Below, piece by piece: positions 18,084-28,836 of a stretch of DNA of 64,000 bases. The stretch comes from a phage. The stretch's first letter is position 1. The number at the start of each line of letters is the position of its first letter. A model generated the notes under the pieces. The model worked only from the letters and a program-made list of their open reading frames with translations, did not search any database and was not told where the DNA came from. A program made the translations under genes and the position numbers. The stretch lies in the NCBI GenBank assembly GCA_024673055.1, contig GCA_024673055.1_4537.1. The stretch is one strand, 5' to 3'.

Positions 18084-18098
18084 GTGAGGAGATAAGTG

Positions 18099-18704
18099 AT
18101 GCAACATAGTGTAGTAGTTAACATGCCAAATAGCGGGGATAAATCTTTTGGTGTCCCTGCTAAAAAAGTGTGGAAAGCCCATTTTCATCTTACTTTATCT
18201 AACGTTAGTTCTGAAGAGTTGATGAAAGCAGCTAAGATTATTGGTGCCAAATGCACAACAATTGATTTACATCGGGATACAAAATCTCAACGTGATCGTA
18301 TGTTAACAAAATATCAAAGCGATCTCGACACTACTTTAATGTTGCAGTGTGTAGAAAAACTTGAGAATGCAGGTTTCAATGTTGTTCGTTACAAACTGGA
18401 ACGAATGTTTAAACATGTCGCCTGTGTTCTTTTCATGGATCTAAGTAAAGAAAATTATGGAGAAGTTCACATTAAGACTTCAGCAAGTGATCCCGAAGTA
18501 GAAACAAACTTCTTCCGTATTTCTTCTAATGCTGAAGAAATTGATTACCGATTTTATAATGCTCGCTTATATTCCGCAGAAGATAAGTTGCGTTTCAATG
18601 AAGCGTATGAGATGCTCTTGAACAGTGGGACACAGATAAAAGGCTACCACATAGAACAAGTGGTAGTGGACAGTAATCTTAATTTAGACGCATGGTGGGC
18701 TTAA
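18099..18704 (+). CDS. hypothetical protein; possible 2H-phosphoesterase-like fold
   Basis: HFHLTLS (HxTx) near N-terminus, second His-containing block GEVHIKTS; uncertain. Confidence 0.45.
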   Translation: MQHSVVVNMPNSGDKSFGVPAKKVWKAHFHLTLSNVSSEELMKAAKIIGAKCTTIDLHRDTKSQRDRMLTKYQSDLDTTLMLQCVEKLENAGFNVVRYKLERMFKHVACVLFMDLSKENYGEVHIKTSASDPEVETNFFRISSNAEEIDYRFYNARLYSAEDKLRFNEAYEMLLNSGTQIKGYHIEQVVVDSNLNLDAWWA

Positions 18705-18705
18705 T

Positions 18706-19362
18706 ATGACTATTAAACATATCTCTTTTGATGTATGGAACACACTGATCACAGCAAACTCCAATTACGCAGATATGCGAGCCTGGACTATCGCAAAATA
18801 TGGAGATATTACGGAAGTGGAAGCAAGAGCAGCTTATAAGAAGATCAAAAAGGAACTGGATAATGCAGCACTTCAAGGCAAAGCTGAGTGTGCAGCATAC
18901 GCCTGGGAAAGACTTGGTTCTGAACTTGGGATAACCCCTTGGAAGTCTGCAAAGCTTCGTTTCGAGTGTGAACAGTGGTTCCTTAAGTTTCCACCACACG
19001 TAGCCGTGGATCTGCCGATGTACTTGCTGTATCTTTCGGGACGTTATGATTTGAGTATTAAGAGCAATACCAACTTCATATCAGGAGATATCCTGCGTCG
19101 TGCTTGTAAGTTTGATAGTTGGAATTGTTTTGAGTTCACCCATTTCTCGGATGAAGCTTTACTTTGTAAACCAGATCCGCGATTCTTTGCTCGCACGCTC
19201 ACGTATTCTCCGATCCCTCTATTAGGGCACGAAGTATTGCACGTAGGCGATAGTGAAGAATACGATGGAAAATGTGTTGACTTAGGATTTAACTTCTGTC
19301 ATATTAGGAACCCTAACGACTTACTAGAGAAACTTAAAAGAGGAGAAATTGTAAATGCGTAA
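18706..19362 (+). CDS. HAD-superfamily hydrolase/phosphatase-like protein
   Basis: Motif I-like ISFDVWNTLI, motif III K-PDPRFF, motif IV HVGDSEEYD. Confidence 0.6.
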   Translation: MTIKHISFDVWNTLITANSNYADMRAWTIAKYGDITEVEARAAYKKIKKELDNAALQGKAECAAYAWERLGSELGITPWKSAKLRFECEQWFLKFPPHVAVDLPMYLLYLSGRYDLSIKSNTNFISGDILRRACKFDSWNCFEFTHFSDEALLCKPDPRFFARTLTYSPIPLLGHEVLHVGDSEEYDGKCVDLGFNFCHIRNPNDLLEKLKRGEIVNA

Positions 19363-20182
19363 TCAAACTCAAATTTTTGCAAATAAATTTGATGACCTGG
19401 AAACTGCTACTTTTGATATTAAAGATTATTCAAAATTGAAATTTGGTAGTAACCAGGCTGCGCGTCGTATGGGTAAAGAATTGGCACTTCAGTTTTTTGC
19501 TCAAGTGGCAATGAAACATATTGGGGAACAATTTGTTATAATCCCTTCTCCTTACAACCATGTGCATAATGCTGCAACAATGATGACAGATCATTTTATT
19601 AATTACTTTAATATGTTGCAATCACAATATGATCAAGGTCGTTCAGCAGAACTGGATATTATTCATCGTAAAGTTAGCTATATCAACGATTATGGTTTCT
19701 TGGATAAAGCTAGTCGTAAGAAACTTATTGATGGGGATACATTCTACTGCAACAAAGAATTCTGGGGTGATAAGAAGCTTGTGTTTATTGATGATGTAAA
19801 TATCACTGGAACTCATGAAGACAAACTGATTGAGATCCTTGATGAAAATCAAGTTAAAAATGATGTTTACTTCTTGTATTTTGCAAAATATGAAGGTAAT
19901 CAAGCAGATACCGAAGCTAAACTGAATTTTAATTATATTAATACACCAGAAGCGTTTATTAAAATGATTAATGAAGAACGTGATGCACAGTGCCTTGTTC
20001 GTCCTATTAAGTATCTTATGGGCCAAAATCACGAAGACTTCAAAATCATTCTTAGCCAATTGCCACACTACTATGTAGAGCAACTTTTCTTCGGATGTTT
20101 GGGAGAAGGTTACAACCGAATTTCAAAGTATGCTGAAAACTTTGAATTCTTGGATCGTTACACAAAACAACACATTCTGTAA
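19355..20182 (+). CDS. type I phosphoribosyltransferase-like protein
   Basis: PRPP-binding-like motif KKLVFIDDVNITGTHEDK. Confidence 0.55.
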   Translation: MRNQTQIFANKFDDLETATFDIKDYSKLKFGSNQAARRMGKELALQFFAQVAMKHIGEQFVIIPSPYNHVHNAATMMTDHFINYFNMLQSQYDQGRSAELDIIHRKVSYINDYGFLDKASRKKLIDGDTFYCNKEFWGDKKLVFIDDVNITGTHEDKLIEILDENQVKNDVYFLYFAKYEGNQADTEAKLNFNYINTPEAFIKMINEERDAQCLVRPIKYLMGQNHEDFKIILSQLPHYYVEQLFFGCLGEGYNRISKYAENFEFLDRYTKQHIL

Positions 20183-20195
20183 TAAGGAGCTAAAA

Positions 20196-20681
20196 ATGCT
20201 TAAAATGAAAACAGGTAATCTTATTGATGCCGCTAAAGCAGGTGAAGTAACTGTTATTGCTCATTGTTGCAACTGTATGTGTAATATGGGGGCAGGTATT
20301 GCCCCACAAATAAAATATGCGTTTCCATATGCATACGAAGCAGATTTAGCTACAGGAGCAGGAAACCAGAAAAAGCTTGGTTCTTTTAGTTTAGGAGAAC
20401 CAGAAGATTATCCTAATCCTATGGTATACAACCTTTATGGACAGTATCGTTATGGATACAATAGTAAAGGTCGTCAACTAGATTATGATGCACTGTATGA
20501 TGCTCTTGCAGCTATGGCAATGGACTTACACAATTACGATAAAGGAGATCAACCAGCACATAAGATTGGTCTACCTATGATTGGCGCTGGATATGCTGGA
20601 GGTAATTGGGCTATCATCCAAGTGATGATTGAAGAAACTTTAGTAAAAACAGGTCACGATGTGACTATTTATAAACTTTAA
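20196..20681 (+). CDS. macro-domain protein (ADP-ribose binding/processing)
   Basis: VIAHCCNCMCNMGAGIA and IGLPMIGAGYAGGNW resemble macro-domain Gly-rich motifs; ATG at 20196 after AAGGAG RBS. Confidence 0.6.
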   Translation: MLKMKTGNLIDAAKAGEVTVIAHCCNCMCNMGAGIAPQIKYAFPYAYEADLATGAGNQKKLGSFSLGEPEDYPNPMVYNLYGQYRYGYNSKGRQLDYDALYDALAAMAMDLHNYDKGDQPAHKIGLPMIGAGYAGGNWAIIQVMIEETLVKTGHDVTIYKL

Positions 20682-20918: not shown

Positions 20919-20946
20919 TTGACATAGTTCTTAAAAAGAGTAAGAT
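20919..20946 (+). promoter_or_regulatory. sigma70-like promoter TTGACA-16-TAAGAT upstream of terC; 5'UTR hairpin GCGGGGA-ATAGT-TCCCCGC at 20959-20977
   Basis: Direct reading. Confidence 0.45.
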
Positions 20947-20994
20947 ATATCACATGAAGCGGGGAATAGTTCCCCGCAAAGAGAGGAGAAAAGA

Positions 20995-21969
20995 ATGCAA
21001 CTTGGTTTCCCAATTATTGATGTAGTTGTTTTAGTTGGTATTTTGGCATTGTCTATTGGTATCGATTTCTTTGGTCATAAAGAGAATAAAGAAATTGGAA
21101 TTAAATCTGCTTTGCTTTGGTCTGTTTTTTGGATTGCTTTAGCTTTAGGATATTACGCATTCATTTGGGTAGAACATGGTAAAGAGTTTGCCGCGCTTTT
21201 CCTAAGTGGCTATGTGTTGGAAAAGAGTCTTTCTGTAGATAACCTGATGGTGTTCATGGCAATTTTTGCAAGCTTTGGAATTAAGAGCACACATCTCCAA
21301 CATAAGATTTTACTTTGGGGGATTGCAGGAGCCATTGTCTTCCGAGGTATTTTTGTTGCAGCAGGGACCGCTTTGTTTAACCTTCATTGGTCGGTCCAAG
21401 TGTTGTTCGGTTTGATTGTAGCTTGGTCTGCCGTGGCTATCATCAAAGGTGGTGACGAAGAAGAGGATATTGATTACTCTAAGCATTGGGCTGTTCGTTT
21501 AGTAGGTAAAGTTCTGCCTGTGCACAATGCACTGGATGGTGAAAAGTTCATCACCATTAAGAATGGTATTAAATATGCAACTCCTGCTCTTCTTTGTGTG
21601 TTTGTTATTGAGCTTACAGATATTGTCTTCTCTTTTGATTCAGTTCCGGCTGTGATCGGTGTGACACAAGAACCTCTGCTAGTTTATTCTGCAATGCTGA
21701 TGGCTGTTCTTGGTTTACGTGCACTTTTCTTTGTGTTAAGTGTGGCTGTGAAATATCTGGTTCACTTAGAGAAAGCTGTTGCTGTGGTTCTGGTGTTTGT
21801 CGGTGCTAAACTTATGTATCACCCGTTCGGTGAAACACTTCATGCCAAATGGTCATTCCTCCCGCATGATATTTCCCCTAACGTAAGTCTGATGATTGTT
21901 CTAGGCACATTAGCTCTTGGTGTTATTGCAAGTTTTATCTTCCCTGAAAAAGAAGAAGCTGCTGTTTAA
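20995..21969 (+). CDS. terC: TerC-family integral membrane protein
   Basis: Multiple TM segments; EKSLSVDNLMVF and ELTDIVFSFDSVPAVIGVT match TerC signature blocks. Confidence 0.75.
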   Translation: MQLGFPIIDVVVLVGILALSIGIDFFGHKENKEIGIKSALLWSVFWIALALGYYAFIWVEHGKEFAALFLSGYVLEKSLSVDNLMVFMAIFASFGIKSTHLQHKILLWGIAGAIVFRGIFVAAGTALFNLHWSVQVLFGLIVAWSAVAIIKGGDEEEDIDYSKHWAVRLVGKVLPVHNALDGEKFITIKNGIKYATPALLCVFVIELTDIVFSFDSVPAVIGVTQEPLLVYSAMLMAVLGLRALFFVLSVAVKYLVHLEKAVAVVLVFVGAKLMYHPFGETLHAKWSFLPHDISPNVSLMIVLGTLALGVIASFIFPEKEEAAV

Positions 21970-21975
21970 TAGATG

Positions 21976-22000
21976 AGCCTCCTTCGGGAGGCTATTTTAT
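21976..22000 (+). terminator. Rho-independent terminator AGCCTCC-TTCG-GGAGGCT + ATTTTAT
   Basis: Hairpin directly after terC stop. Confidence 0.55.
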
Positions 22001-22011
22001 AGGAGAGACTT

Positions 22012-22362
22012 ATGAATAATTTTGATGAAATTCAAGAACTTATTTGGGATTTATCTGGTGATGTGGATTACGTTTTAGATTATCTTTCAAAAGTTTACCC
22101 TGGGGTAAGCGTTATGATTGTGACCAAAGATCCAATTAATTTGCCTCCTAATGTTGTAGCTTGTTGTGGAAGTGGTTCAGGAGAAGTAGAGCCTGTATCT
22201 CGTTGGGAATTAACTAAAGCTGTTTCAAAACGAAACGGTGAAGTTTTGAATATTGATATCGAACAAATATGGACTTCTCCAGCAGCCAAATGGAACGATC
22301 CAAATGGTTGGGATTTGTTCTTCTGGGATAATGAAACTGATGATGAGGTATTTTTAAAATGA
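22012..22362 (+). CDS. hypothetical protein (116 aa)
   Basis: ORF with RBS. Confidence 0.5.
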   Translation: MNNFDEIQELIWDLSGDVDYVLDYLSKVYPGVSVMIVTKDPINLPPNVVACCGSGSGEVEPVSRWELTKAVSKRNGEVLNIDIEQIWTSPAAKWNDPNGWDLFFWDNETDDEVFLK

Positions 22363-22530
22363 AATACTTGTTGGTTGTGTTTGAAAATATCTGTTTTGCA
22401 ATAGGGTTGTTTGTTGTAATTTTTGTATTGACAAGCGTAATCAACGGCAGTAAAGTGAGTTTATACCGAGATGGAGAGCAACTTTATTGCTTCTCTGGAG
22501 ATTTCAAACATAGATGTATTAATAGTCAAA

Positions 22531-22983
22531 ATGAGGAAAGCAAATATGAAAAAACTAGCCCTGATTTTAATTGGTTGTATCTTTTTAACAGCTTGCGAGG
22601 ATGAAACAAATCCTGCACAATACCAACAACCTCCTCAACAATACGCTCAACAAGGATCTGACGGAGATACAACTATTATCAACAATGGTGGCGGTTCTAG
22701 TAGTAGCGGTGTTGGTGAGTTTGCTACAGGTATGTTGTTAGGGCATATGATGAGTGGTGGTAGTAATCGTAACAGTGGAGATTATAACGATAACAGAACG
22801 ATTATTAATAAGCATTATAATACACCTAAACCGAAAACTAATTTTTATGGTAAGCCTAAACAAGAGATAAAAACTTATGAAAAGCCGAGACAAACTTTTA
22901 AAACAAATAGTAGCTATACAACTCGTAAATCTTACAATAGCCCTTTAAGTAAAAAGAGTTCATCTCGTAGCAAGCGACGTTAA
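22531..22983 (+). CDS. putative lipoprotein (Gly/Ser/Asn-rich, basic C-terminus)
   Basis: Signal peptide with lipobox LTAC; start may be 22531 or 22546. Confidence 0.5.
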   Translation: MRKANMKKLALILIGCIFLTACEDETNPAQYQQPPQQYAQQGSDGDTTIINNGGGSSSSGVGEFATGMLLGHMMSGGSNRNSGDYNDNRTIINKHYNTPKPKTNFYGKPKQEIKTYEKPRQTFKTNSSYTTRKSYNSPLSKKSSSRSKRR

Positions 22984-22997
22984 TAAGGAGAAAAACA

Positions 22998-23591
22998 ATG
23001 ACAATTTCTATTCGTACTTCCATTACAGGTGTTAAAAGTTTGCCTAATGCTTTGCAAATCACACGTGCTTTGAGGGATACGTTCTCTGCTGTGGATGAGC
23101 ATAAGATGCTCGATAATCTCTCAAATTGGCCCTATTTTCATTATTTTAAAAACGAAGACGACGAGTTTATAGACGCTGTTTCTTACGGTTATGATTTCGG
23201 TAAGGAAGTTTCCCCTGAAGAATTTGTAGCTACTGTGTTCCCAAACGGTTTGCCTACTCGCAGTAAACGTAAAAAAGGACCAAAAAACAAGAAACGTGCT
23301 ACTAATAAAGCTACCATTTTCTTTACTGATGGCACACAATATACGATTAAAGATTTTGAAGAGGTATCTTATACAGCAGGTGGGAGTCTTTCTTTCTACA
23401 CCATCAAAAAACAAAACTATACGTTCAGCCATGTTTCTAACATGATTGAAATGTTAGTAGAAGATATTGAAAGCGTGGCTGTGTTAGGTATGCATAAAAG
23501 CTTTTTAATTACAAATATTTCAGATTTCAGTGCAAGTTTATCTGGCCCTGATTTTGAAGCCACGACCACGTATTTCGCTTTTAAGGTGTAA
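22998..23591 (+). CDS. hypothetical protein (197 aa)
   Basis: ORF with AAGGAG RBS. Confidence 0.5.
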   Translation: MTISIRTSITGVKSLPNALQITRALRDTFSAVDEHKMLDNLSNWPYFHYFKNEDDEFIDAVSYGYDFGKEVSPEEFVATVFPNGLPTRSKRKKGPKNKKRATNKATIFFTDGTQYTIKDFEEVSYTAGGSLSFYTIKKQNYTFSHVSNMIEMLVEDIESVAVLGMHKSFLITNISDFSASLSGPDFEATTTYFAFKV

Positions 23592-23594
23592 GTT

Positions 23595-24185
23595 ATGCAT
23601 ACCGAGAGAGACTTGCAACTCTTGTGGTGGGAAGTGATGCAGGAAATAAAAGAAGATTTTCCTGTTTACTACAACATGTTACGTGAAGCAGGATATAAAG
23701 CTTGTGTTAGAAACAAAGTGAATAACTCTTTCGGTTGGTGCAACTACCGAGATAAAATTGTTGTTGTAAATTGGCACTTGCATAAGAACTCCACAAGAGA
23801 TATGATCGTGGATACAATGAAGCACGAAATTGCTCATGCTATTGATGGTTGTATGGGTAAGTTTAGTAGGCACGGTGCTCATTGGCAAAAACTGGCAGCA
23901 GAATTAGGGGCTAATCCTAAAGCCACTTCCAAAGAGCCGTTGAACCACGAATATAAATATGTTCTTGTTCTGGTAGATAGGTTTGCGACAAGATGTGTTA
24001 GAGGTTATAATCGTAAACCTAATCGCATGTACCCAGGTAAGCAACCTAATATGTGGTTGAAATCAGATAAAGAAGGGACCGAAGGAAAATTATGGTTGTA
24101 TAAATGGGACGATTGGGTTAAAGTAGCTAAAGAGTACGGTGTTTCACCATATATAAGAGATGCAGAAGAGGAGAATGAAGAATGA
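23595..24185 (+). CDS. SprT-like zinc metallopeptidase
   Basis: HEIAHAIDG (HExxH) followed by HGAHWQKLAAELG, as in SprT-like proteins. Confidence 0.55.
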   Translation: MHTERDLQLLWWEVMQEIKEDFPVYYNMLREAGYKACVRNKVNNSFGWCNYRDKIVVVNWHLHKNSTRDMIVDTMKHEIAHAIDGCMGKFSRHGAHWQKLAAELGANPKATSKEPLNHEYKYVLVLVDRFATRCVRGYNRKPNRMYPGKQPNMWLKSDKEGTEGKLWLYKWDDWVKVAKEYGVSPYIRDAEEENEE

Positions 24186-25294
24186 CAAGTCCATTTTTAA
24201 AAGCAGCTACTGGTGGTCAGAAGAAGCCTGAAATGAGCGTATTTGCTGCAACAACAGATGCAAGTAAATCTGTATTCGCTCCAAGCGTGTTAGATGCCAG
24301 TCCTGTTTATGCACCAGCGGCACCGCAAGAAGTTCCAGTTTTGCCTTCTATGACCCGACAAGAGATTGAAGAGATTGGGGCAGAGGCAGGAACAACCTTG
24401 CGTTCCTTGAATGCCGAGGTGTTAAAACATCAACGTAGTAATCAAGGCGATCAGATGAGTGAACGACTCACAGCTTTGATTAAACAGGCAAAACAACTTG
24501 ATCCAAACTCTATTAAACAAAGCAAGGGTATTACTAAACTCATTAAAAAAGTTATGGGTATGAAAGAAGACCTGTTCGGGGAGTTTGATAATGTTAATAA
24601 CCGTATTGAAGAGTTGGTAAAGAACCTTCAAATGGATATTCGCAAAGAAGAAGATTCCTTAGTATATCTTGAAAAGCTACATCAAGCTATTGGACAATAT
24701 GCTGCAAGTTTGAACCGAGATATGCAGCTTCTAACAGCAACCTATGAAAAAGAAGAACAAGCTTTGGCTGCTCTTCCAGAAGATGCAGTAGAACAGCGAC
24801 AAGTGATCCGAGATACTTTGGATCTTCTGGAGATTCGTATTGCAGATTTAAAAGCATTGCGCCTACTGTGTGTCCAAATGGGACCGCGTGTACAAGGTAT
24901 GCAAAAAGTTTCTGCAAGCTTAATGCGATCTGCGCGTAACATAGTAAATAATGTTATTCCTGCTTACTCTGCTAACTTCTCAATGTATATCGAGAGCTTA
25001 CGTCAAATGAAAGCAGCAGAGACGCAGAATAACGTTCTTGATGAATTTAACCTGGCAATTAAACTGGGTAGCGATCTTGCCACACAGAATCAGATCGAAG
25101 CAGCAGCACTGGCTAACCGTCAAGTGTTGGATATTGAAACTCTGCGTCACGATCAGGAAAACTTGGTTAAGATGTTGGAAGAAACTAACCGCATCAATAC
25201 GGAAGCCCGTGCTGCTCGTGTTGATTATATTAATGAAGTTCAGTCTCTGGAAGACGGGATGGTAGCTGCTGTGAAACGAGGGCTTGGTAAATGA
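24182..25294 (+). CDS. coiled-coil protein, possibly TelA-like toxic-anion-resistance family
   Basis: 370-aa helical protein inside a Ter-like gene neighbourhood; family assignment by size and context only. Confidence 0.4.
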   Translation: MTSPFLKAATGGQKKPEMSVFAATTDASKSVFAPSVLDASPVYAPAAPQEVPVLPSMTRQEIEEIGAEAGTTLRSLNAEVLKHQRSNQGDQMSERLTALIKQAKQLDPNSIKQSKGITKLIKKVMGMKEDLFGEFDNVNNRIEELVKNLQMDIRKEEDSLVYLEKLHQAIGQYAASLNRDMQLLTATYEKEEQALAALPEDAVEQRQVIRDTLDLLEIRIADLKALRLLCVQMGPRVQGMQKVSASLMRSARNIVNNVIPAYSANFSMYIESLRQMKAAETQNNVLDEFNLAIKLGSDLATQNQIEAAALANRQVLDIETLRHDQENLVKMLEETNRINTEARAARVDYINEVQSLEDGMVAAVKRGLGK

Positions 25295-25488
25295 GAATCC
25301 GTATCTATATAATTGATGAGGACATTGGTGTCCGTTATGATGACGAAAAACGATTCGCACCGATGGGAGGCATATATCCCCCAAGTGTTCTAGCAGTTTG
25401 TCGTGATTGTTATATTTATGAAGGTTGTCGTAACTTCCGTAAATTCGAACTCCTTGCAGATATTGACTTCAATGAGGAGGAGGAGTAA
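25291..25488 (+). CDS. small Cys-containing protein (65 aa)
   Basis: ORF, CRDCYIYEGC. Confidence 0.4.
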   Translation: MRIRIYIIDEDIGVRYDDEKRFAPMGGIYPPSVLAVCRDCYIYEGCRNFRKFELLADIDFNEEEE

Positions 25489-25661
25489 TGAAAATATTAC
25501 GAGTGAATATTGAAACTGCTTGGTGTGGATGCAATGAGGTTGTGGATATCGAAATTGAAGATGATATGTCTCAAGAGGATATAGAAGATCTTGCACACGA
25601 AACCTTTCAGGATTATTGTAATTACGGGTTCCATATTTTAGAGGAGGAAGAAGATGTATAA
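25488..25661 (+). CDS. hypothetical small acidic protein (57 aa), not in ORF track
   Basis: ATG overlapping previous stop (TAATG); GGAGGAGG RBS. Confidence 0.3.
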   Translation: MKILRVNIETAWCGCNEVVDIEIEDDMSQEDIEDLAHETFQDYCNYGFHILEEEEDV

Positions 25662-26052
25662 TCCAACAGGTATTCTTTTAAAACTTACAGTAACAGACCC
25701 TACTCTTTTCACTAAGTTAGCAAGTGGTGAAGTTTATGAAGTAATGAAAGATGATGACGGTTGGTGTTATCTTTGTGGCTACTTCCTCTGTGATGCAGAA
25801 GAGTTAGAATCCATTGTAACTAAAGGTTTTTATGAAGAACCAGGGTTCCGTGTGGAAACTACGCAGAAACCTGATACCATTACGTTGACTCGACAGGAAC
25901 TGATCACAATCATTGAAGATGCTTTTATTGATGGCTGGAATACACAAGATAATGACTGGGGTGGACCCGAAGCTTTTCTGGAACATCATAAAGCTTATGG
26001 AGAATTTTGTGAAACCACTGTAGCTCTTGATAATCTGAAGGAGGGTTTGTAA
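25654..26052 (+). CDS. hypothetical protein (132 aa)
   Basis: ORF with RBS. Confidence 0.45.
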   Translation: MYNPTGILLKLTVTDPTLFTKLASGEVYEVMKDDDGWCYLCGYFLCDAEELESIVTKGFYEEPGFRVETTQKPDTITLTRQELITIIEDAFIDGWNTQDNDWGGPEAFLEHHKAYGEFCETTVALDNLKEGL

Positions 26053-26615
26053 TGGGTTGTTTTAGCTTTTTGTGCAAAGAATCGGGCAAAGCTGCCCTTT
26101 CTACTTCTTTCGACGGATCACCTTGCTACCTCTTTCTTTTGAAGGACGGTGTTGTTATTGAAGAGATGTATGGCAACTATGATAGTTATGGTTGTGTTTT
26201 CTCTGGAAAGGAGGATGAAAATGGTGTTCGTGAACGATTTGAATGGGCTATGGATTGGAGTAAGGTTTGTGATTTGATGCATTCCTCAAATCCAAGGGAC
26301 GGTATCGCTATGGTGCTGGAAGAGTACTTTACAGGTGAAATCCCTACAGAACAATCTGACGGAGATCCTAACCAAGGTTGGGGTGATGGTGAAGAAGATC
26401 CAGATTGTTTTTTCAGCACAGAAAAGAATAAGTTTAAACGTGTTGACAACCCTTATCACAAAGTGCATAATACTCTCATTGAAACAGAAGATGACAAGAT
26501 GGAAATTGAAGAAGATGATCCTCTTGTAACACTTCCTATAAGTGAGTTACAAAAGATCACTAAGGAAGCTTACGATTTGGGCTTCAAAATTGGTAGAGGA
26601 GGTATGCGTGTTTAG
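26052..26615 (+). CDS. hypothetical acidic protein (187 aa)
   Basis: ORF with RBS. Confidence 0.45.
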   Translation: MGCFSFLCKESGKAALSTSFDGSPCYLFLLKDGVVIEEMYGNYDSYGCVFSGKEDENGVRERFEWAMDWSKVCDLMHSSNPRDGIAMVLEEYFTGEIPTEQSDGDPNQGWGDGEEDPDCFFSTEKNKFKRVDNPYHKVHNTLIETEDDKMEIEEDDPLVTLPISELQKITKEAYDLGFKIGRGGMRV

Positions 26616-26886
26616 ATTCAATATTCAAGAAGAAAAAAGTCAAGATTTACCTATTGCTTTCGAAGATCTTGACGTAGGGGCAACATTCATGTATTATGAT
26701 GCCTATGAAGACGCAGGGTTGGATACCTACCGTAACTTGGTGTTCATTAAAAATTCCACAAACAGTGCGATTTGTATTAATGGATCACTAGCACAACGAG
26801 GCTATACTCATTGCATCCCACCAGATACAAATATGGTGGAAGTAGATTTAGAAGTTACCAATATTACACTTAAGAAGGAGAAATAA
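26608..26886 (+). CDS. small protein, paralog A of 27908-28177
   Basis: GTG start after AGGAGG; shares (I/F)xDLDVG(A/D)TF(M/V)Y...GLD...EV(D/E)L(E/T)VT(N/G)ITLK with 27908-28177. Confidence 0.45.
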   Translation: MFRFNIQEEKSQDLPIAFEDLDVGATFMYYDAYEDAGLDTYRNLVFIKNSTNSAICINGSLAQRGYTHCIPPDTNMVEVDLEVTNITLKKEK

Positions 26887-26887
26887 T

Positions 26888-27682
26888 ATGTCCGAGAAAA
26901 TCAGCCTGAAAAAACGTCAAGAAAACCTTGCTTTCTCTCTGAAAAAGAATAAGAACCTGAATGAAGGTAAGATTGTTCTTCGTGTAGCATGTGCTCTAGA
27001 TATTTCTGGTAGTATGCATGGTCTATATTCTAGTGGGGTAGTGAGTGATTTTGTAGGTAAACTGCTTCCTTTTGGTATGCTGTTCGACGATAATCAACAA
27101 ATTGATATGTGGGCCTTCAATACGAGTTCCCAAGAGCTTACTCCAGCAACAGCAGACGTTTACGATGACTATGTTGGTAAATGTATGCGTAATGTTCGTA
27201 TCGGAGGTGGAACAAATTACGCCCCTGTAATGGCAGATATCTACGATGAGTATTTTGGCACTGTTACCAAATATATTACCACTAAACAAGTGGTACAAGA
27301 GGAGGCTCCAAAGAAAGGCTTCTTTAATCGTCTGCTTGGTAAAACTGAAACAGTGTCTGTAGAGCGTGAAAAAGTTGTAGCTGTATCTGAACCAGGTGCT
27401 GACGTTACCCCTGGTGTTGTATTCTTCCAGACGGATGGTGAGAATGGTGATCCTAGTGCTGTTCGTCGTCTTATTGAAGAGAATAAGAATAAACCTATTT
27501 ATTGGTTCATGGTTGGCGTTGGTAATGAGAAGTTTGGCTTCCTGAAAGAACTGGCAAATGCTTATGATAATGTTGGTTTTATTGGCATTAAAGATTTAGA
27601 CTTGACAGATTCAGAGCTTTATGACAAACTCTTATCTGAAGAGTTCGGAGAGTGGGTTGTTAAAGTAGGTGCTAAAAAATGA
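26888..27682 (+). CDS. von Willebrand factor A (vWA) domain protein, TerY-like, with TerD-like N-terminal leader
   Basis: MIDAS motifs DISGSM, GGTN, QTDGE; N-terminus KISLKK...SLKK resembles TerD N-terminus. Confidence 0.7.
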   Translation: MSEKISLKKRQENLAFSLKKNKNLNEGKIVLRVACALDISGSMHGLYSSGVVSDFVGKLLPFGMLFDDNQQIDMWAFNTSSQELTPATADVYDDYVGKCMRNVRIGGGTNYAPVMADIYDEYFGTVTKYITTKQVVQEEAPKKGFFNRLLGKTETVSVEREKVVAVSEPGADVTPGVVFFQTDGENGDPSAVRRLIEENKNKPIYWFMVGVGNEKFGFLKELANAYDNVGFIGIKDLDLTDSELYDKLLSEEFGEWVVKVGAKK

Positions 27683-27927
27683 TCGACGAGCTTGCCTCTC
27701 AAGTCATAGAAAATTATTGGCGCGAGAGAGAAGCTTTCATTATGCGCAGTCTCAAAGAGTATTTCATTGGGACTGTGCGAATGGAAGATATTGTAAGTAG
27801 AGTAGAGATTCATGTATGGCCCGATTATGAAGAATGGGTTGACAAAGAAAATGAAAATGCTATAATTCTTCGTATATACAAACCGGAGATAACATTAGGA
27901 GGAAGAAGTGTTAAACTTCGAAATTGA
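27679..27927 (+). CDS. hypothetical protein (82 aa)
   Basis: ORF, start overlaps previous stop. Confidence 0.4.
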   Translation: MIDELASQVIENYWREREAFIMRSLKEYFIGTVRMEDIVSRVEIHVWPDYEEWVDKENENAIILRIYKPEITLGGRSVKLRN

Positions 27928-28177
27928 TGAGCAAAAAGTAAATAAACGATGTCTTACCATTAAAGATTTGGATGTAGGAGATACTTTCGTCTATGAAAAT
28001 GCATTTGACGAAAATGGTTTAGACCTTAGTGAAATCATTGTTTATTTAAAAGTAGATGATGGGGAAAATGATTGTTCTGCTGTAGAACTAAACCATCATG
28101 CACAATTAGTATCAATCCAAAACACATCCAAGCTTTTGGAAGTAGAATTGACTGTAACTGGTATTACACTTAAATAA
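27908..28177 (+). CDS. small protein, paralog B of 26608-26886
   Basis: See 26608-26886. Confidence 0.45.
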   Translation: MLNFEIDEQKVNKRCLTIKDLDVGDTFVYENAFDENGLDLSEIIVYLKVDDGENDCSAVELNHHAQLVSIQNTSKLLEVELTVTGITLK

Positions 28178-28192
28178 TAGAGGAGACAAAAG

Positions 28193-28795
28193 ATGACTGA
28201 TAAAATTTCCCTGAAAAAAGGCTCTAGCGAAAAAATTTCCCTGAAGAAAGTTGCTCCGGCTCTGAAAGAACTGCGCCTGGAATTCTCTTGGAAATCTGAT
28301 TCTAAACTGGATCTGGATGTAAGTGCACTGGTTTGTCGTCACAATGCCACTGGCAATCCTGAAATGCTGTCTGCACGTCACCTGGTTTGCTATGCTAACA
28401 AGTTTGATCCTGAACGTTCTACCTTCGCTGGTGACGATGTTCGTGATGGAACTGGCAGCATGGAGCAGATTGATATTACTCTGGCTAAAATCTCTCCTGA
28501 TGCACAAGAGATTGCCTTTGTTCTGACCATTGATGATGATACAGGTCTGAAACGTTTTGGTCATGCTTCTGAAGGTATGCTTAAAATCTTTGACTCCGAG
28601 CGCAATGTTGAAATTCTGGATTTTGACTTCCTGGCTCCTGAAGTAGCTGGCAACACAATCTGCCACGTGGCTTCCTTGGTTCGTGAAGATGGGGAATGGA
28701 AGCTGAAAGCATATGGTGTAGGTAAAGCTGGTCTGGATATTTGTGATGTGGTGATGGCCTTCGGTGGTAAAAAAGAATGGTATGAATGTCCATAA
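28193..28795 (+). CDS. terD: TerD-family protein
   Basis: Duplicated KISLKK leader, DLDVSAL, AGDDVRDGTGS, AFVLTIDDD, DGEWKLKAYGVG align to TerD-family blocks; CTG/CGT/GGT-dominated codon usage. Confidence 0.8.
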   Translation: MTDKISLKKGSSEKISLKKVAPALKELRLEFSWKSDSKLDLDVSALVCRHNATGNPEMLSARHLVCYANKFDPERSTFAGDDVRDGTGSMEQIDITLAKISPDAQEIAFVLTIDDDTGLKRFGHASEGMLKIFDSERNVEILDFDFLAPEVAGNTICHVASLVREDGEWKLKAYGVGKAGLDICDVVMAFGGKKEWYECP

Positions 28796-28813: not shown

Positions 28814-28836
28814 GAGGGGGAGAAATCCCCCTCTTG
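28814..28836 (+). terminator. Rho-independent terminator GAGGGGG-AGAAAT-CCCCCTC
   Basis: Hairpin after terD stop; T-run weak. Confidence 0.5.

What the first reader, a model, noticed from the sequence alone, without database searches (positions are those of the whole stretch)
22012..26615. Block of family-less genes plus SprT-like peptidase embedded between terC and the vWA/TerD genes
Eight consecutive ORFs with no recognisable family (apart from an HExxH SprT-like protein, a lipoprotein and a coiled-coil TelA-like candidate) are co-transcribed with the Ter-like genes. They are candidates for unknown partners of the system.
Basis: inference. Interest (0 to 1): 0.4.

Follow-up and report, generated by a model that had tools for sequence, protein, structure and literature searches.

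The report
Accessory genes inside a phage Ter cluster
This stretch of a phAPEC8-like E. coli phage holds ten real genes inside the phage's known tellurite-resistance-like (Ter) cluster, but only a few look like true partners of that system, so the finding is largely ordinary.

Summary
The window comes from a Phapecoctavirus (phAPEC8-like E. coli myophage), about 99% identical to published genomes. Positions 22012-26615 hold ten same-strand, tightly packed ORFs, all under purifying selection. They lie between terC and K92-vWA(TerF-like)-L82-M89-TerD, downstream of a HAD/PRTase_3/Macro module.

The block is not family-less throughout. One ORF is a clear TelA (Pfam E 3e-33), a core Ter component. 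One is SprT-like (E 4e-9). One is a borderline DUF7167.

It is also not a coherent partner set:
- The SprT-like protein, H57, the I132 C-domain and the J187 N-domain all have relatives in phages with no Ter genes.
- A116, the lipoprotein, SprT, G65, H57 and J187 are each missing from at least one otherwise syntenic relative.
- Only B81 (a single-pass membrane protein) tracks TelA one-to-one, 132 versus 132 phage records.
- The lipoprotein C and the D family stay between terC and telA in most lineages of the subfamily. These, with K92/M89 just outside the interval, are the only credible lineage-specific Ter accessories.
- A structurally conserved terminator hairpin separates terC from the block, and an internal promoter precedes M89/TerD.

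Phage Ter clusters are already described, so interest is low. One side result: the J187 N-domain is a widespread, strongly conserved phage family with no Pfam entry and no fold match.

The parts
18706..20681 (+). Upstream nucleotide-metabolite module: HAD-like hydrolase (18706-19362), ComF-like PRTase_3 (19355-20182), Macro domain protein (20208-20681)
   Evidence: Pfam: PRTase_3 7e-42; HAD E 4e-4 and Macro E 4e-4, both below their cut-offs. Annotated as HAD hydrolase, phosphoribosyltransferase and Macro/phosphatase in SKA64 and SF1-1. The same component types are listed for Ter systems in PMC7824862.
20919..20946 (+). Sigma-70-like promoter upstream of terC (TTGACA-16-TAAGAT)
   Evidence: Consensus scan 10/12. 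The same site is annotated as a promoter in phage ASO2A. Consensus match only.
20995..21969 (+). TerC integral membrane protein
   Evidence: PF03741 E 3e-40. 70-73% aa identity in alia, Tr1 and phiWec179.
21976..21993 (+). Intrinsic-terminator-like hairpin AGCCTCC-TTCG-GGAGGCT followed by ATTTTAT, between terC and the block
   Evidence: Scan. Predicted by TransTermHP and WebGeSTer in ASO2A. A stem-loop sits at the same place in phiWec179, alia and Tr1, with compensatory stem changes, dG -14.5 to -17.
22012..22362 (+). A116: acidic soluble ORFan (pI 4.1), essentially genus-restricted
   Evidence: phrog_27498 only. No Pfam, NCBIfam or PDB match. 74 phage records, almost all Phapecoctavirus plus one weak (28% identity) Salmonella phage match. 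Absent from alia and Tr1. pN/pS 0.07-0.21.
22359..22604 (+). B81: small single-pass membrane protein with conserved motif RDGEQxYCFSxDFK
   Evidence: Hydropathy 2.64 over residues 6-24. Orthologues in phiWec179, alia and Tr1. 132 phage records in identity bands 65/6/61, identical to TelA's bands.
22546..22983 (+). C: lipoprotein (lipobox LTA|C) with conserved glycine-rich core GGGSSSSGVGEFATGMLLGHMMSGG and a basic S/K/R-rich tail. Its start overlaps the B81 3' end by 59 nt
   Evidence: Sequence read. Orthologues with lipobox LLVG|C and the same core motif in alia and Tr1. Absent from phiWec179. phrog_21570/32479; weak Rz-like spanin hit, E 0.008.
22998..23591 (+). D197: variable N-terminal part, K/R-rich linker (RSKRKKGPKNKKRATNK), conserved all-beta C-terminal domain (about residues 100-197)
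   Evidence: Alignment with the 283-289 aa versions in phiWec179, alia and Tr1. Only 8 clusters in 5.8 billion proteins and 25 representatives in 1.84 billion, and none of the ten D-family representatives scanned has a D-related Pfam domain. AF2 C-domain pLDDT about 88, N-part below 50. No PDB fold match, best E 0.04 with TM below 0.2.
23595..24185 (+). SprT-like zincin (H77ExxH81, H93G), without the C-terminal zinc ribbon
   Evidence: PF10263 4.2e-9, 36.7 bits. NCBIfam SprT equivalog only 21 bits against a cut-off of 175. 293 distant relatives in T4-like Klebsiella/Enterobacter/Vibrio, Streptomyces and Pseudomonas phages. Absent from alia.
24182..25294 (+). TelA (toxic anion resistance family), a core Ter-system component
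   Evidence: PF05816 3.2e-33, residues 59-361 against profile 13-327 of 332. phrog_5890 'tellurite resistance' 1.5e-139. 223 phage records, including compact TelA-vWA-TerC-TerD modules in phiPsa267 and RB23.
25291..25488 (+). G65: small acidic ORFan
   Evidence: phrog_24000 only. 62% identity in phiWec179. Not detected in alia or Tr1.
25488..25661 (+). H57: small acidic protein, DUF7167-like
   Evidence: PF23768 23.2 bits against a cut-off of 24.4. phrog_1997. 105 distant relatives in about 41-kb Salmonella phages, Enterococcus phages and others.
25654..26052 (+). I132: variable N-terminal half plus conserved C-terminal domain (residues 73-132)
   Evidence: phrog_14200 covers only residues 67-132. 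Only 30 of 139 records cover at least 80% of I132, and the shorter matches listed span only its C-terminal part. The C-domain is a stand-alone ORF between Sir2 and DNA ligase in Erwinia phage Hena1, with no Ter genes.
26052..26615 (+). J187: N-terminal domain of about 138 aa from a widespread phage family of unknown function, plus a lineage-specific acidic/helical tail
   Evidence: 314 clusters at 50-65% identity with no Pfam entry. 32 invariant positions, including G2, C3, C8, GNYDSYG, DPNQGWG and H136. AF2 pLDDT 85.5. No fold match in PDB or BFVD. 46 of 48 viral loci lack Ter genes. Absent from phiWec179 and Tr1.
26608..26886 (+). K92: small protein directly upstream of vWA, paralogue of M89 (just outside the reported interval)
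   Evidence: phrog_11278 for both K92 and M89. 127 records, all in the Stephanstirmvirinae group. The junction repeat K-end/vWA-start resembles M-end/TerD-start. No relation to TerD.
26888..27682 (+). vWA-TerF-like protein with intact MIDAS motif (D38-I-S-G-S42)
   Evidence: PF10138 1.6e-37. Motif read.
27679..27927 (+). L82: Phapecoctavirus-restricted small ORF between vWA and M89
   Evidence: phrog_22387. 59% identity in phiWec179. Absent from alia and Tr1.
27839..27866 (+). Perfect sigma-70 consensus (TTGACA-16-TATAAT with TG), inside L82 and upstream of M89/TerD
   Evidence: 12/12 match. Both hexamers are intact in phiWec179 and L015 although 5 spacer bases differ.
27908..28177 (+). M89: paralogue of K92, directly upstream of TerD
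   Evidence: phrog_11278. Alignment A5.
28193..28795 (+). TerD domain protein
   Evidence: PF02342 2.9e-28.
28814..28833 (+). Hairpin GAGGGGG-AGAAAT-CCCCCTC after TerD, a probable operon end with a weak T-tail
   Evidence: Sequence. The corresponding site is annotated as a rho-independent terminator in ASO2A.

Best explanation
The interval is the middle of the Ter-like cluster of a virulent Phapecoctavirus. The cluster has a four-gene core: terC, telA, a TerF-type vWA gene and terD. The same four genes sit next to each other in unrelated phages. In this subfamily the core has been pulled apart by a plastic stretch of small genes.

The ten ORFs of the finding fall into three classes:
1. telA, a known core component.
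2. Lineage-specific genes locked in position next to the core: the single-pass membrane protein B81, the lipoprotein C and the D-family protein. K92 and M89, immediately upstream of vWA and TerD, belong with them. These are the only plausible accessory subunits.
3. Independent, exchangeable phage accessory genes that merely reside here: the SprT-like zincin, H57, I132, J187, and probably A116 and G65.

Proposed mechanism, inferred and not shown: terC is made from its own early promoter. Read-through of the terC hairpin, or unrecognised promoters, then expresses A116 to TerD. TelA, the MIDAS-containing vWA protein and TerD assemble under the inner membrane beside TerC. B81 and the lipoprotein extend the assembly into the periplasm and outer membrane. 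The complex stabilises or closes the infected cell's envelope against superinfecting phages, colicins or ion stress. The upstream PRTase/HAD/Macro enzymes would make the nucleoside-like ligand proposed for Ter systems. The SprT-like protease and the small acidic proteins would act on other targets.
For: Shown:
- Identity of the genome and conserved gene order in over 60 records.
- Pfam assignments of TerC, TelA, vWA-TerF-like, TerD and PRTase_3.
- The compact TelA-vWA-TerC-TerD order in phiPsa267 and RB23, with none of the block's unknowns nearby.
- Purifying selection on every ORF.
- B81 record counts and identity bands identical to TelA's, 65/6/61.
- C and D orthologues between terC and telA in alia and Tr1.
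- B81's transmembrane segment and C's lipobox.
- Presence/absence differences among syntenic relatives.
- Non-Ter contexts for SprT, H57, the I132 C-domain and the J187 N-domain.
- Allele swaps and indels confined to single genes. J187 is 84% nt identical in ASO2A and terC 73% in SKA64, while their neighbours are 99%. J187 is present in L015 but absent from its close relative phiWec179.
- The conserved hairpin after terC and the conserved internal promoter.

From the literature: phage Ter systems with PRTase, HAD, TerD, TerC, TerF-vWA and TelA, and their proposed role against superinfecting phages (PMC7824862).
Against: - No experiment or interaction prediction links B81, C, D or K/M to the Ter proteins. 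Co-location within one phage subfamily could be simple inheritance.
- The lipoprotein is dispensable in phiWec179-type phages, and K92 in Tr1.
- The function of any phage Ter cluster is unknown, and tellurite resistance was judged unlikely for PhiPsa374 (PMC9796965).
- The hairpin after terC may uncouple terC from the rest.
- D and J187 gave confident domain models but no fold match, so structure adds no functional support.
- The record lists for B81 and TelA were compared by counts and bands only, not record by record.
Confidence: 0.55

Rival explanations
1. One reading: the whole block is a dedicated, co-transcribed set of unknown subunits or regulators of the phage Ter system.
For: All ten ORFs are on the same strand and tightly packed, with overlapping start and stop codons, between terC and vWA/TerD. 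The order is conserved at 96-99% identity in more than 60 Phapecoctavirus genomes. All are under purifying selection.
Against: Six of the ten ORFs are absent from at least one otherwise syntenic relative, and I132 is cut down to its C-domain in many records. Four families occur mainly or often in phages without Ter genes. Compact Ter modules in other phages lack all of them. A conserved terminator hairpin follows terC.
Confidence: 0.08
2. None of the non-Ter ORFs, including B81, C, D and K/M, has anything to do with Ter. The space between the core genes is just a tolerated insertion site for early or accessory genes such as host take-over, anti-defence or exclusion proteins, each acting alone.
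For: Plasticity of the region, with indels and single-gene allele swaps. The small acidic proteins, pI 4.1-4.5, are typical of phage early genes. B81, C and D occur only in one subfamily, so their linkage to Ter cannot be separated from common descent. The lipoprotein is lost in phiWec179.
Against: B81 is retained in every lineage examined and matches TelA's distribution band for band, although neighbouring genes come and go. K92 and M89 are duplicated together with the start regions of vWA and TerD. Membrane and lipoprotein products next to terC fit the envelope location proposed for Ter complexes (PMC7824862).
Confidence: 0.3
3. B81 and the lipoprotein C are a two-component spanin (inner-membrane i-spanin plus outer-membrane lipoprotein o-spanin) used for lysis.
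For: The architecture is right: an N-terminal transmembrane protein whose gene's 3' end overlaps the start of a lipoprotein gene by 59 nt. C gives a weak PHROG hit to Rz-like spanin, E 0.008. An endolysin lies 6 kb downstream.
Against: The phAPEC8 spanin pair was assigned to phAPEC8_00145/00146 at 62.0-62.6 kb of that genome, far from the Ter block at 114-122 kb, and has the expected coiled-coil i-spanin (PMC6139136 supplement). Those sequences have no match in this window. B81's periplasmic part is only about 55 residues. C has no periplasmic cysteine. C is absent from phiWec179.
Confidence: 0.03

Closest known systems
Ter-dependent stress-response systems (terZABCDEF / telA; Anantharaman, Iyer & Aravind 2012) and their phage-encoded versions (Iyer et al. 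2021, PMC7824862)
   Same: TerC, TelA, a TerF-type vWA protein and TerD are all present, with a PRTase and a HAD enzyme nearby. This is the component list given for phage Ter systems, which that paper also notes occur in some smaller tailed phages.
   Different: There is one TerD copy instead of several paralogues, and no TerB was noticed in the ORFs examined. The core genes are separated by up to eleven extra genes. B81, C, D and K/M have no detectable counterpart in the compact Ter modules of phiPsa267 and RB23. The 2012 paper could not be read here, so what is said about it rests and on my own knowledge.
SprT / Spartan / Wss1 zincin metallopeptidases (Pfam PF10263)
   Same: The HExxH motif plus a downstream His-Gly, and a score above Pfam's cut-off.
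   Different: It is not an orthologue of E. coli SprT: 21 bits against the 175-bit NCBIfam cut-off. There is no C-terminal CxxC zinc ribbon; the C-terminal half has one Cys. No PDB relative is found by sequence. Nearest relatives are uncharacterised proteins of large virulent phages.
Two-component spanins (lambda Rz/Rz1 type)
   Same: A membrane-anchored protein gene overlapping a lipoprotein gene.
   Different: The phage's spanins are elsewhere. The periplasmic domain is too short, the lipoprotein has no disulfide-forming cysteines, and it is dispensable in a close relative.
Early phage exclusion lipoproteins (e.g. T5 Llp; from my own knowledge)
   Same: A phage-encoded lipoprotein placed among non-structural genes, and a possible role in closing the envelope to further infection.
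   Different: No sequence similarity was detected in Pfam, PHROGs, NCBIfam or PADLOC. No receptor-blocking evidence exists. This is a functional analogy only.

Membership tests
TelA (PF05816) | Near full-length match to the family profile above the curated cut-off | tested here: met
   115.7 bits against a cut-off of 30; residues 59-361 cover profile positions 13-327 of 332.
TelA (PF05816) | Genomic association with other Ter genes | tested here: met
   TerC, vWA-TerF-like and TerD lie within 4 kb. The same association is seen in phiPsa267 and RB23.
SprT-like zincin (PF10263) | HExxH with a third His ligand downstream, and a profile score above the cut-off | tested here: met
   H77-E78-I-A-H81 and H93-G94, read; 36.7 bits against a cut-off of 25.6.
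SprT (E. coli SprT equivalog, NCBIfam NF003421) | Equivalog-level score and a C-terminal zinc ribbon | tested here: not met
   21.1 bits against a cut-off of 175. There is a single Cys in the C-terminal half.
DUF7167 (PF23768), for H57 | Score above the gathering cut-off | tested here: not met
   23.2 bits against 24.4. This is borderline, and relatedness remains likely.
Phage/bacterial Ter system | Presence of TerC, a TerD-domain protein, a TerF/TerY-type vWA protein and TelA | tested here: met
   PF03741 3e-40, PF02342 2.9e-28, PF10138 1.6e-37 and PF05816 3.2e-33.
Phage/bacterial Ter system | Linked nucleoside-metabolite enzymes (PRTase, HAD) | tested here: met
   PRTase_3 7e-42. The HAD match is weak (E 4e-4, below cut-off) but the gene is annotated as a HAD hydrolase in relatives.
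Phage/bacterial Ter system | The block's unknown ORFs co-occur with Ter genes outside this phage subfamily | tested here: not met
   None were found within 9 kb of TelA in 121Q, phiPsa267 or RB23. J187-N, SprT, H57 and I132-C occur without Ter.
Phage/bacterial Ter system | Resistance to tellurite, colicins or phage conferred by the genes | not testable with these tools
   This needs an experiment.
TerY-P and other catalogued defence systems (PADLOC) | Match of vWA, TelA, TerD or block proteins to defence-system models | tested here: not met
   No PADLOC hit for vWA, TelA, TerD, A116, I132, J187 or K92. D197 and SprT gave only chance-level hits.
Two-component spanin | i-spanin with a transmembrane segment plus a long periplasmic coiled coil; o-spanin lipoprotein; the only such pair serving lysis | tested here: not met
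   Gene overlap, transmembrane segment and lipobox are present. However, the spanins of phAPEC8 are assigned elsewhere, B81's periplasmic part is about 55 aa, and C is lost in phiWec179.

The most novel reading that the evidence does not exclude
B81, the glycine-rich lipoprotein C and the D-family protein (with K92/M89 beside vWA and TerD) are subfamily-specific subunits. They would turn the sub-membrane TelA/vWA/TerD/TerC assembly into a trans-envelope device that a virulent phage uses to seal its host against superinfection or colicins. These would be the first defined accessory subunits of any Ter system. Separately, the J187 N-domain would be a new-fold, probably metal-binding, phage protein family that is common in uncultured phages.
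Probability: 0.15. Interest if true: 0.5.

Novelty: already known. Interest (0 to 1): 0.2.

Why it matters
The function of Ter clusters is a long-standing puzzle, and virulent phages carrying them offer a simple genetic handle. This analysis narrows about fifteen uncharacterised neighbours to three to five candidates worth testing: B81, C, D and K92/M89. It shows that the SprT-like protease and several small proteins should not be read as Ter components. It also flags the J187 N-domain as an unannotated family that is abundant in environmental phages. Beyond that, the locus is a previously sequenced and annotated part of phAPEC8-like genomes, and it does not change the current understanding of Ter systems.

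Tried and rejected
- **K92/M89 as degenerate TerD paralogues.** hhalign probability was 0.2%. Rejected.
- **A peptidase next to TelA as a recurring theme.** The 121Q 'metallopeptidase' beside TelA shows no similarity to the SprT-like protein and is an Rv2179c-like exoribonuclease. Rejected.
- **B81/C as spanins.** Rejected.
- **Fold assignment.** The J187 model (pLDDT 85.5) has no PDB or BFVD neighbour. The D197 C-domain model (pLDDT about 88) has no PDB neighbour. PDB sequence and profile searches were empty for SprT, TelA, J187, D, I132 and A116.
- **Recurrent neighbours of J187-N homologues in 46 viral loci.** Clustering found only other unknown families and an M48/M78-like peptidase, with no functional clue.
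- **Defence-system models.** PADLOC gave nothing for the block.
- **The Anantharaman 2012 paper.** Not available.
- **Other features.** No tRNA, Rfam family or tandem repeat in the region, and no compositional anomaly.

Full report
**What the window is.** A 7.8-kb query covering terC to terD matches 100 phage records. Sixty-two of them cover at least 80% of the query, and identity reaches 99.3%. The best matches are phAPEC8, anhysbys, ABPW7 and other members of Phapecoctavirus in the Stephanstirmvirinae. The window is therefore part of a virulent E. coli myophage genome of about 150 kb. Base composition across the block is 0.37-0.41 GC, no different from the rest of the window.

**Gene content.** All genes below are on the + strand.
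- Upstream: nrdD and nrdG, two small or unknown ORFs, then a HAD-like hydrolase, a ComF-like PRTase_3 (7e-42), a Macro-domain protein and a 73-aa two-transmembrane protein.
- TerC (3e-40).
- The block of the finding, ten ORFs from 22012 to 26615.
- Downstream: K92, a vWA-TerF-like protein (1.6e-37, MIDAS DISGS intact), L82, M89, TerD (2.9e-28) and a SleB-type endolysin.

**The observation.** The interval's ends are exact ORF boundaries, but it holds ten ORFs rather than eight. Three have family assignments:
- A full-length TelA, 115.7 bits against a cut-off of 30.
- An SprT-like zincin, 36.7 bits against 25.6, with H77ExxH81 and H93G.
- H57, which falls just under the DUF7167 cut-off.

C is a lipoprotein with signal peptide MKKLALILIGCIFLTA|C. 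B81 has one strong hydrophobic segment. The other proteins are soluble and mostly very acidic. Every ORF shows pN/pS well below 1 against SKA64, ASO2A and phiWec179 wherever substitutions exist, so all are genuine genes. GenBank records already annotate them as hypothetical proteins, 'SprT-like domain-containing protein', 'TelA-like protein' and 'TerD family protein'.

**Transcription.** From A116 to TerD, neighbouring genes either overlap by 1-59 nt or are separated by at most 15 nt. That fits one operon with translational coupling. Three features complicate 'co-transcribed with the Ter-like genes':
- The 42-nt terC-A116 spacer is almost filled by the hairpin AGCCTCC-TTCG-GGAGGCT followed by ATTTTAT. 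The annotators of phage ASO2A predicted the same terminator with two programs.
- phiWec179, alia and Tr1 each have a hairpin at the same place with different but complementary stems (AACCTCC/GGAGGTT, GCCCC/GGGGC, GAGCCTCC/GGAGGCTT). The structure, not the sequence, is conserved.
- terC has its own promoter-like site (20919-20946). A perfect TTGACA-16-TG-TATAAT lies inside L82 before M89/TerD, and its hexamers are unchanged in phiWec179 although five spacer bases differ.

A further hairpin follows TerD. Co-transcription of the block with vWA/TerD is plausible. Co-transcription with terC would need read-through.

**Test 1: syntenic relatives.** I compared the locus with phiWec179 (a divergent Phapecoctavirus), alia (Justusliebigvirus) and Citrobacter phage Tr1. 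All keep TerC, TelA, vWA and TerD in the same order.
- B81 is present in all three (49-70% identity).
- The D family is present in all three as a 283-289 aa protein. It shares only the K/R-rich linker and the C-terminal beta domain with D197.
- The lipoprotein is present in alia and Tr1, with a lipobox and the same GVGEFATGMLLGH core, but absent from phiWec179.
- SprT is absent from alia.
- A116, G65 and H57 are absent from alia and Tr1.
- J187 is absent from phiWec179 and Tr1, yet present in L015, a close relative of phiWec179.
- Only 30 of 139 records cover at least 80% of I132, and the shorter matches listed span only its C-terminal part.

Record counts in the 50,697-phage collection tell the same story:

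| Protein | Records |
|---|---|
| TelA at 60% identity or more | 132 (bands 65/6/61) |
| B81 | 132 (bands 65/6/61) |
| K92 | 127 |
| J187 | 120 |
| A116 | 74 |
| D197 | 71 |
| Close SprT | 71 |
| Close H57 | 71 |
| C (by tblastn) | 65 |

Single genes also carry swapped alleles. J187 is 84% nt identical in ASO2A and terC 73% in SKA64, while their neighbours are 99%. The region is therefore recombinationally plastic.

**Test 2: Ter clusters in unrelated phages.** TelA relatives occur in 223 phage records. In Pseudomonas phage phiPsa267 and Caulobacter phage RB23 the order is TelA-vWA-TerC-TerD with nothing in between. None of the block's unknowns is detectable within 9 kb. In 121Q, TelA stands without the other Ter genes. 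The neighbouring 'metallopeptidase' is an Rv2179c-like exoribonuclease unrelated to the SprT-like protein.

**Test 3: the block's families outside Ter contexts.**
- The SprT-like protein has 293 distant relatives (about 27% identity over 65-70% of its length) in T4-like Klebsiella, Enterobacter, Citrobacter and Vibrio phages, and in Streptomyces and Pseudomonas phages. The Vibrio, Streptomyces and Enterobacter groups do not appear among the leading TelA-bearing groups.
- H57 has relatives in about 41-kb Salmonella phages and in Enterococcus phages.
- The I132 C-domain is a stand-alone ORF between Sir2 and DNA ligase in Erwinia phage Hena1.
- The J187 N-domain is the most striking case, described next.

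**The J187 N-domain.**
- It has 314 protein clusters at 50-65% identity, typically 130-145 aa, with no Pfam domain.
- There are 32 invariant positions, including G2, C3, C8, GNYDSYG, DPNQGWG and H136.
- Homologues sit in replication or RNA-repair-type neighbourhoods of uncultured phages.
- Of 48 IMG/VR loci with 10-kb flanks, only the two Stephanstirmvirinae loci contain Ter genes. This holds both by tblastn and by profile HMMs built from diverse phage TelA, TerC, TerD and vWA sequences.
- The AlphaFold model is confident (pLDDT 85.5, above 90 over most of residues 11-110) but has no neighbour in the PDB (best E 0.33) or in BFVD apart from itself.

**The D family.** D is the largest position-locked unknown, so it received the remaining deep searches.
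- It has only 8 clusters in the 5.8-billion-protein collection, and 25 representatives at E<=0.001 in the 1.84-billion library.
- None of the ten D-family representatives scanned has a D-related Pfam domain.
- The C-terminal domain models confidently as an all-beta domain, but its best PDB match is E 0.04 with TM below 0.2.

D is a true subfamily-restricted ORFan.

**Rival for B81/C.** A transmembrane protein gene overlapping a lipoprotein gene is the spanin architecture, and C has a weak Rz-like PHROG hit. However, the curated spanin survey places the phAPEC8 pair at phAPEC8_00145/00146 (62.0-62.6 kb), with a coiled-coil i-spanin. That is far from the Ter block at 114-122 kb. Those proteins have no match in this window, and C is dispensable in phiWec179. 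I reject the spanin reading.

**What it most likely is and does.** The Ter core is known: terC, telA, TerF-type vWA and terD, with PRTase and HAD upstream. Phage versions have been described, with a proposed role in competition with superinfecting phages (PMC7824862). Other authors note that the function in phages is unknown (PMC9796965; PMC8386662).

- Within the finding's interval, telA belongs to that core.
- B81, probably C and D, and K92/M89 just outside the interval, are the only candidates for lineage-specific accessories. K92/M89 are duplicated together with the ribosome-binding site and the first codons of vWA and TerD, and both of those proteins start M[ST][ED]KISLKK.
- Their membrane, lipoprotein and basic-linker features fit an envelope-associated complex.
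- The SprT-like zincin, H57, I132 and J187, and probably A116 and G65, are independent accessory genes in a plastic region.

The assembly and exclusion mechanism is inference. Nothing here shows interaction or phenotype.

**Novelty and score.** The locus is present and annotated in more than a hundred public genomes. The Ter assignment of its core genes is in those annotations, and phage Ter systems are in the literature. The analysis mainly shows that the proposed partner set is not coherent. What remains is a short list of testable candidates and an unannotated, widespread phage domain (J187-N). Interest is low, 0.2. The most novel reading still open is a trans-envelope Ter variant built with B81, C and D. 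I give it about 15% probability, and it would be of moderate interest if true.

Noticed in passing
window 26052-26465 (J187 residues 1-138); homologues in L008-L011 and L017-L062: The J187 N-domain is a strongly conserved phage protein family. It has 314 clusters at 50-65% identity and invariant MGC..C, GNYDSYG, DPNQGWG and H136. It has no Pfam entry and no structural neighbour in the PDB or BFVD despite a confident model. Among cultured phages it occurs only in the Stephanstirmvirinae group, but it is common in uncultured marine and other phages.
   Followed up: partly
window 18096-18704: The 202-aa ORF just upstream of the HAD/PRTase/Macro genes matches two PADLOC models named AbiEi (E 7e-13 and 1e-11), has no Pfam family, and is absent from alia. 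It may belong to the nucleotide-metabolite module or be a separate conflict gene.
   Followed up: no
window 27839-27866: A perfect extended sigma-70 consensus (TTGACA-16-TG-TATAAT) lies inside the L82 coding sequence, 40 nt before M89. Both hexamers are unchanged in phiWec179 and L015 while five spacer bases differ. This suggests a functional internal early promoter for M89-TerD.
   Followed up: partly
window 21976-21993; L012 5398-5417, L003 5729-5746, L004 5001-5025: The hairpin after terC is conserved in four lineages through compensatory stem substitutions, usually with a UUCG loop. It is likely a terminator or attenuator that sets terC apart from the downstream genes.
   Followed up: partly
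window 26837-26914 and 28137-28219: A direct repeat of about 80 nt (76-77% identity, spacing about 1300 nt) covers the 3' end of K92, the RBS and the first codons of vWA, and likewise the 3' end of M89, the RBS and the first codons of TerD. Both downstream proteins start M[ST][ED]KISLKK. This points to a duplicated 'small protein plus Ter protein' junction.
   Followed up: partly
L001 4001-4975 (SKA64 terC); L013 5558-6121 (ASO2A J187 homologue): Single-gene allele replacement: terC is only 73% nt identical in SKA64, and J187 only 84% in ASO2A, while all flanking genes are 99% identical. Recombination has swapped individual genes within the cluster.
   Followed up: partly
L004 2047-3147 (Citrobacter phage Tr1): Tr1 encodes a 366-aa protein with collagen triple-helix repeats (9e-22) and a YadA-type membrane anchor (3e-11) two genes upstream of terC. 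It resembles a trimeric autotransporter and sits in the same neighbourhood.
   Followed up: no
L003 11367-11969 (alia) and L004 11179-11823 (Tr1): Justusliebigvirus and Tr1 carry an extra protein of about 200 aa, with no Pfam family, directly after TerD. Phapecoctavirus lacks it. Alia also has an AAA ATPase inserted after nrdG.
   Followed up: no
search results: Records named Campylobacter phage B15, C3, A145 and A110a, Acinetobacter phage ABPW7, Pseudomonas phage PsgM04F and Dompiswa phage TSP7_1 match E. coli Phapecoctavirus or Justusliebigvirus genomes across this locus, several of them at 95-99% identity. Their host labels look doubtful.
   Followed up: no
window 20960-20978: A GC-rich hairpin (GCGGGGAA-TAG-TTCCCCGC) lies between the terC promoter-like site and the terC ribosome-binding site, with no T-tail. 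It is annotated as a terminator in ASO2A but looks more like a 5'-UTR stem-loop.
   Followed up: no
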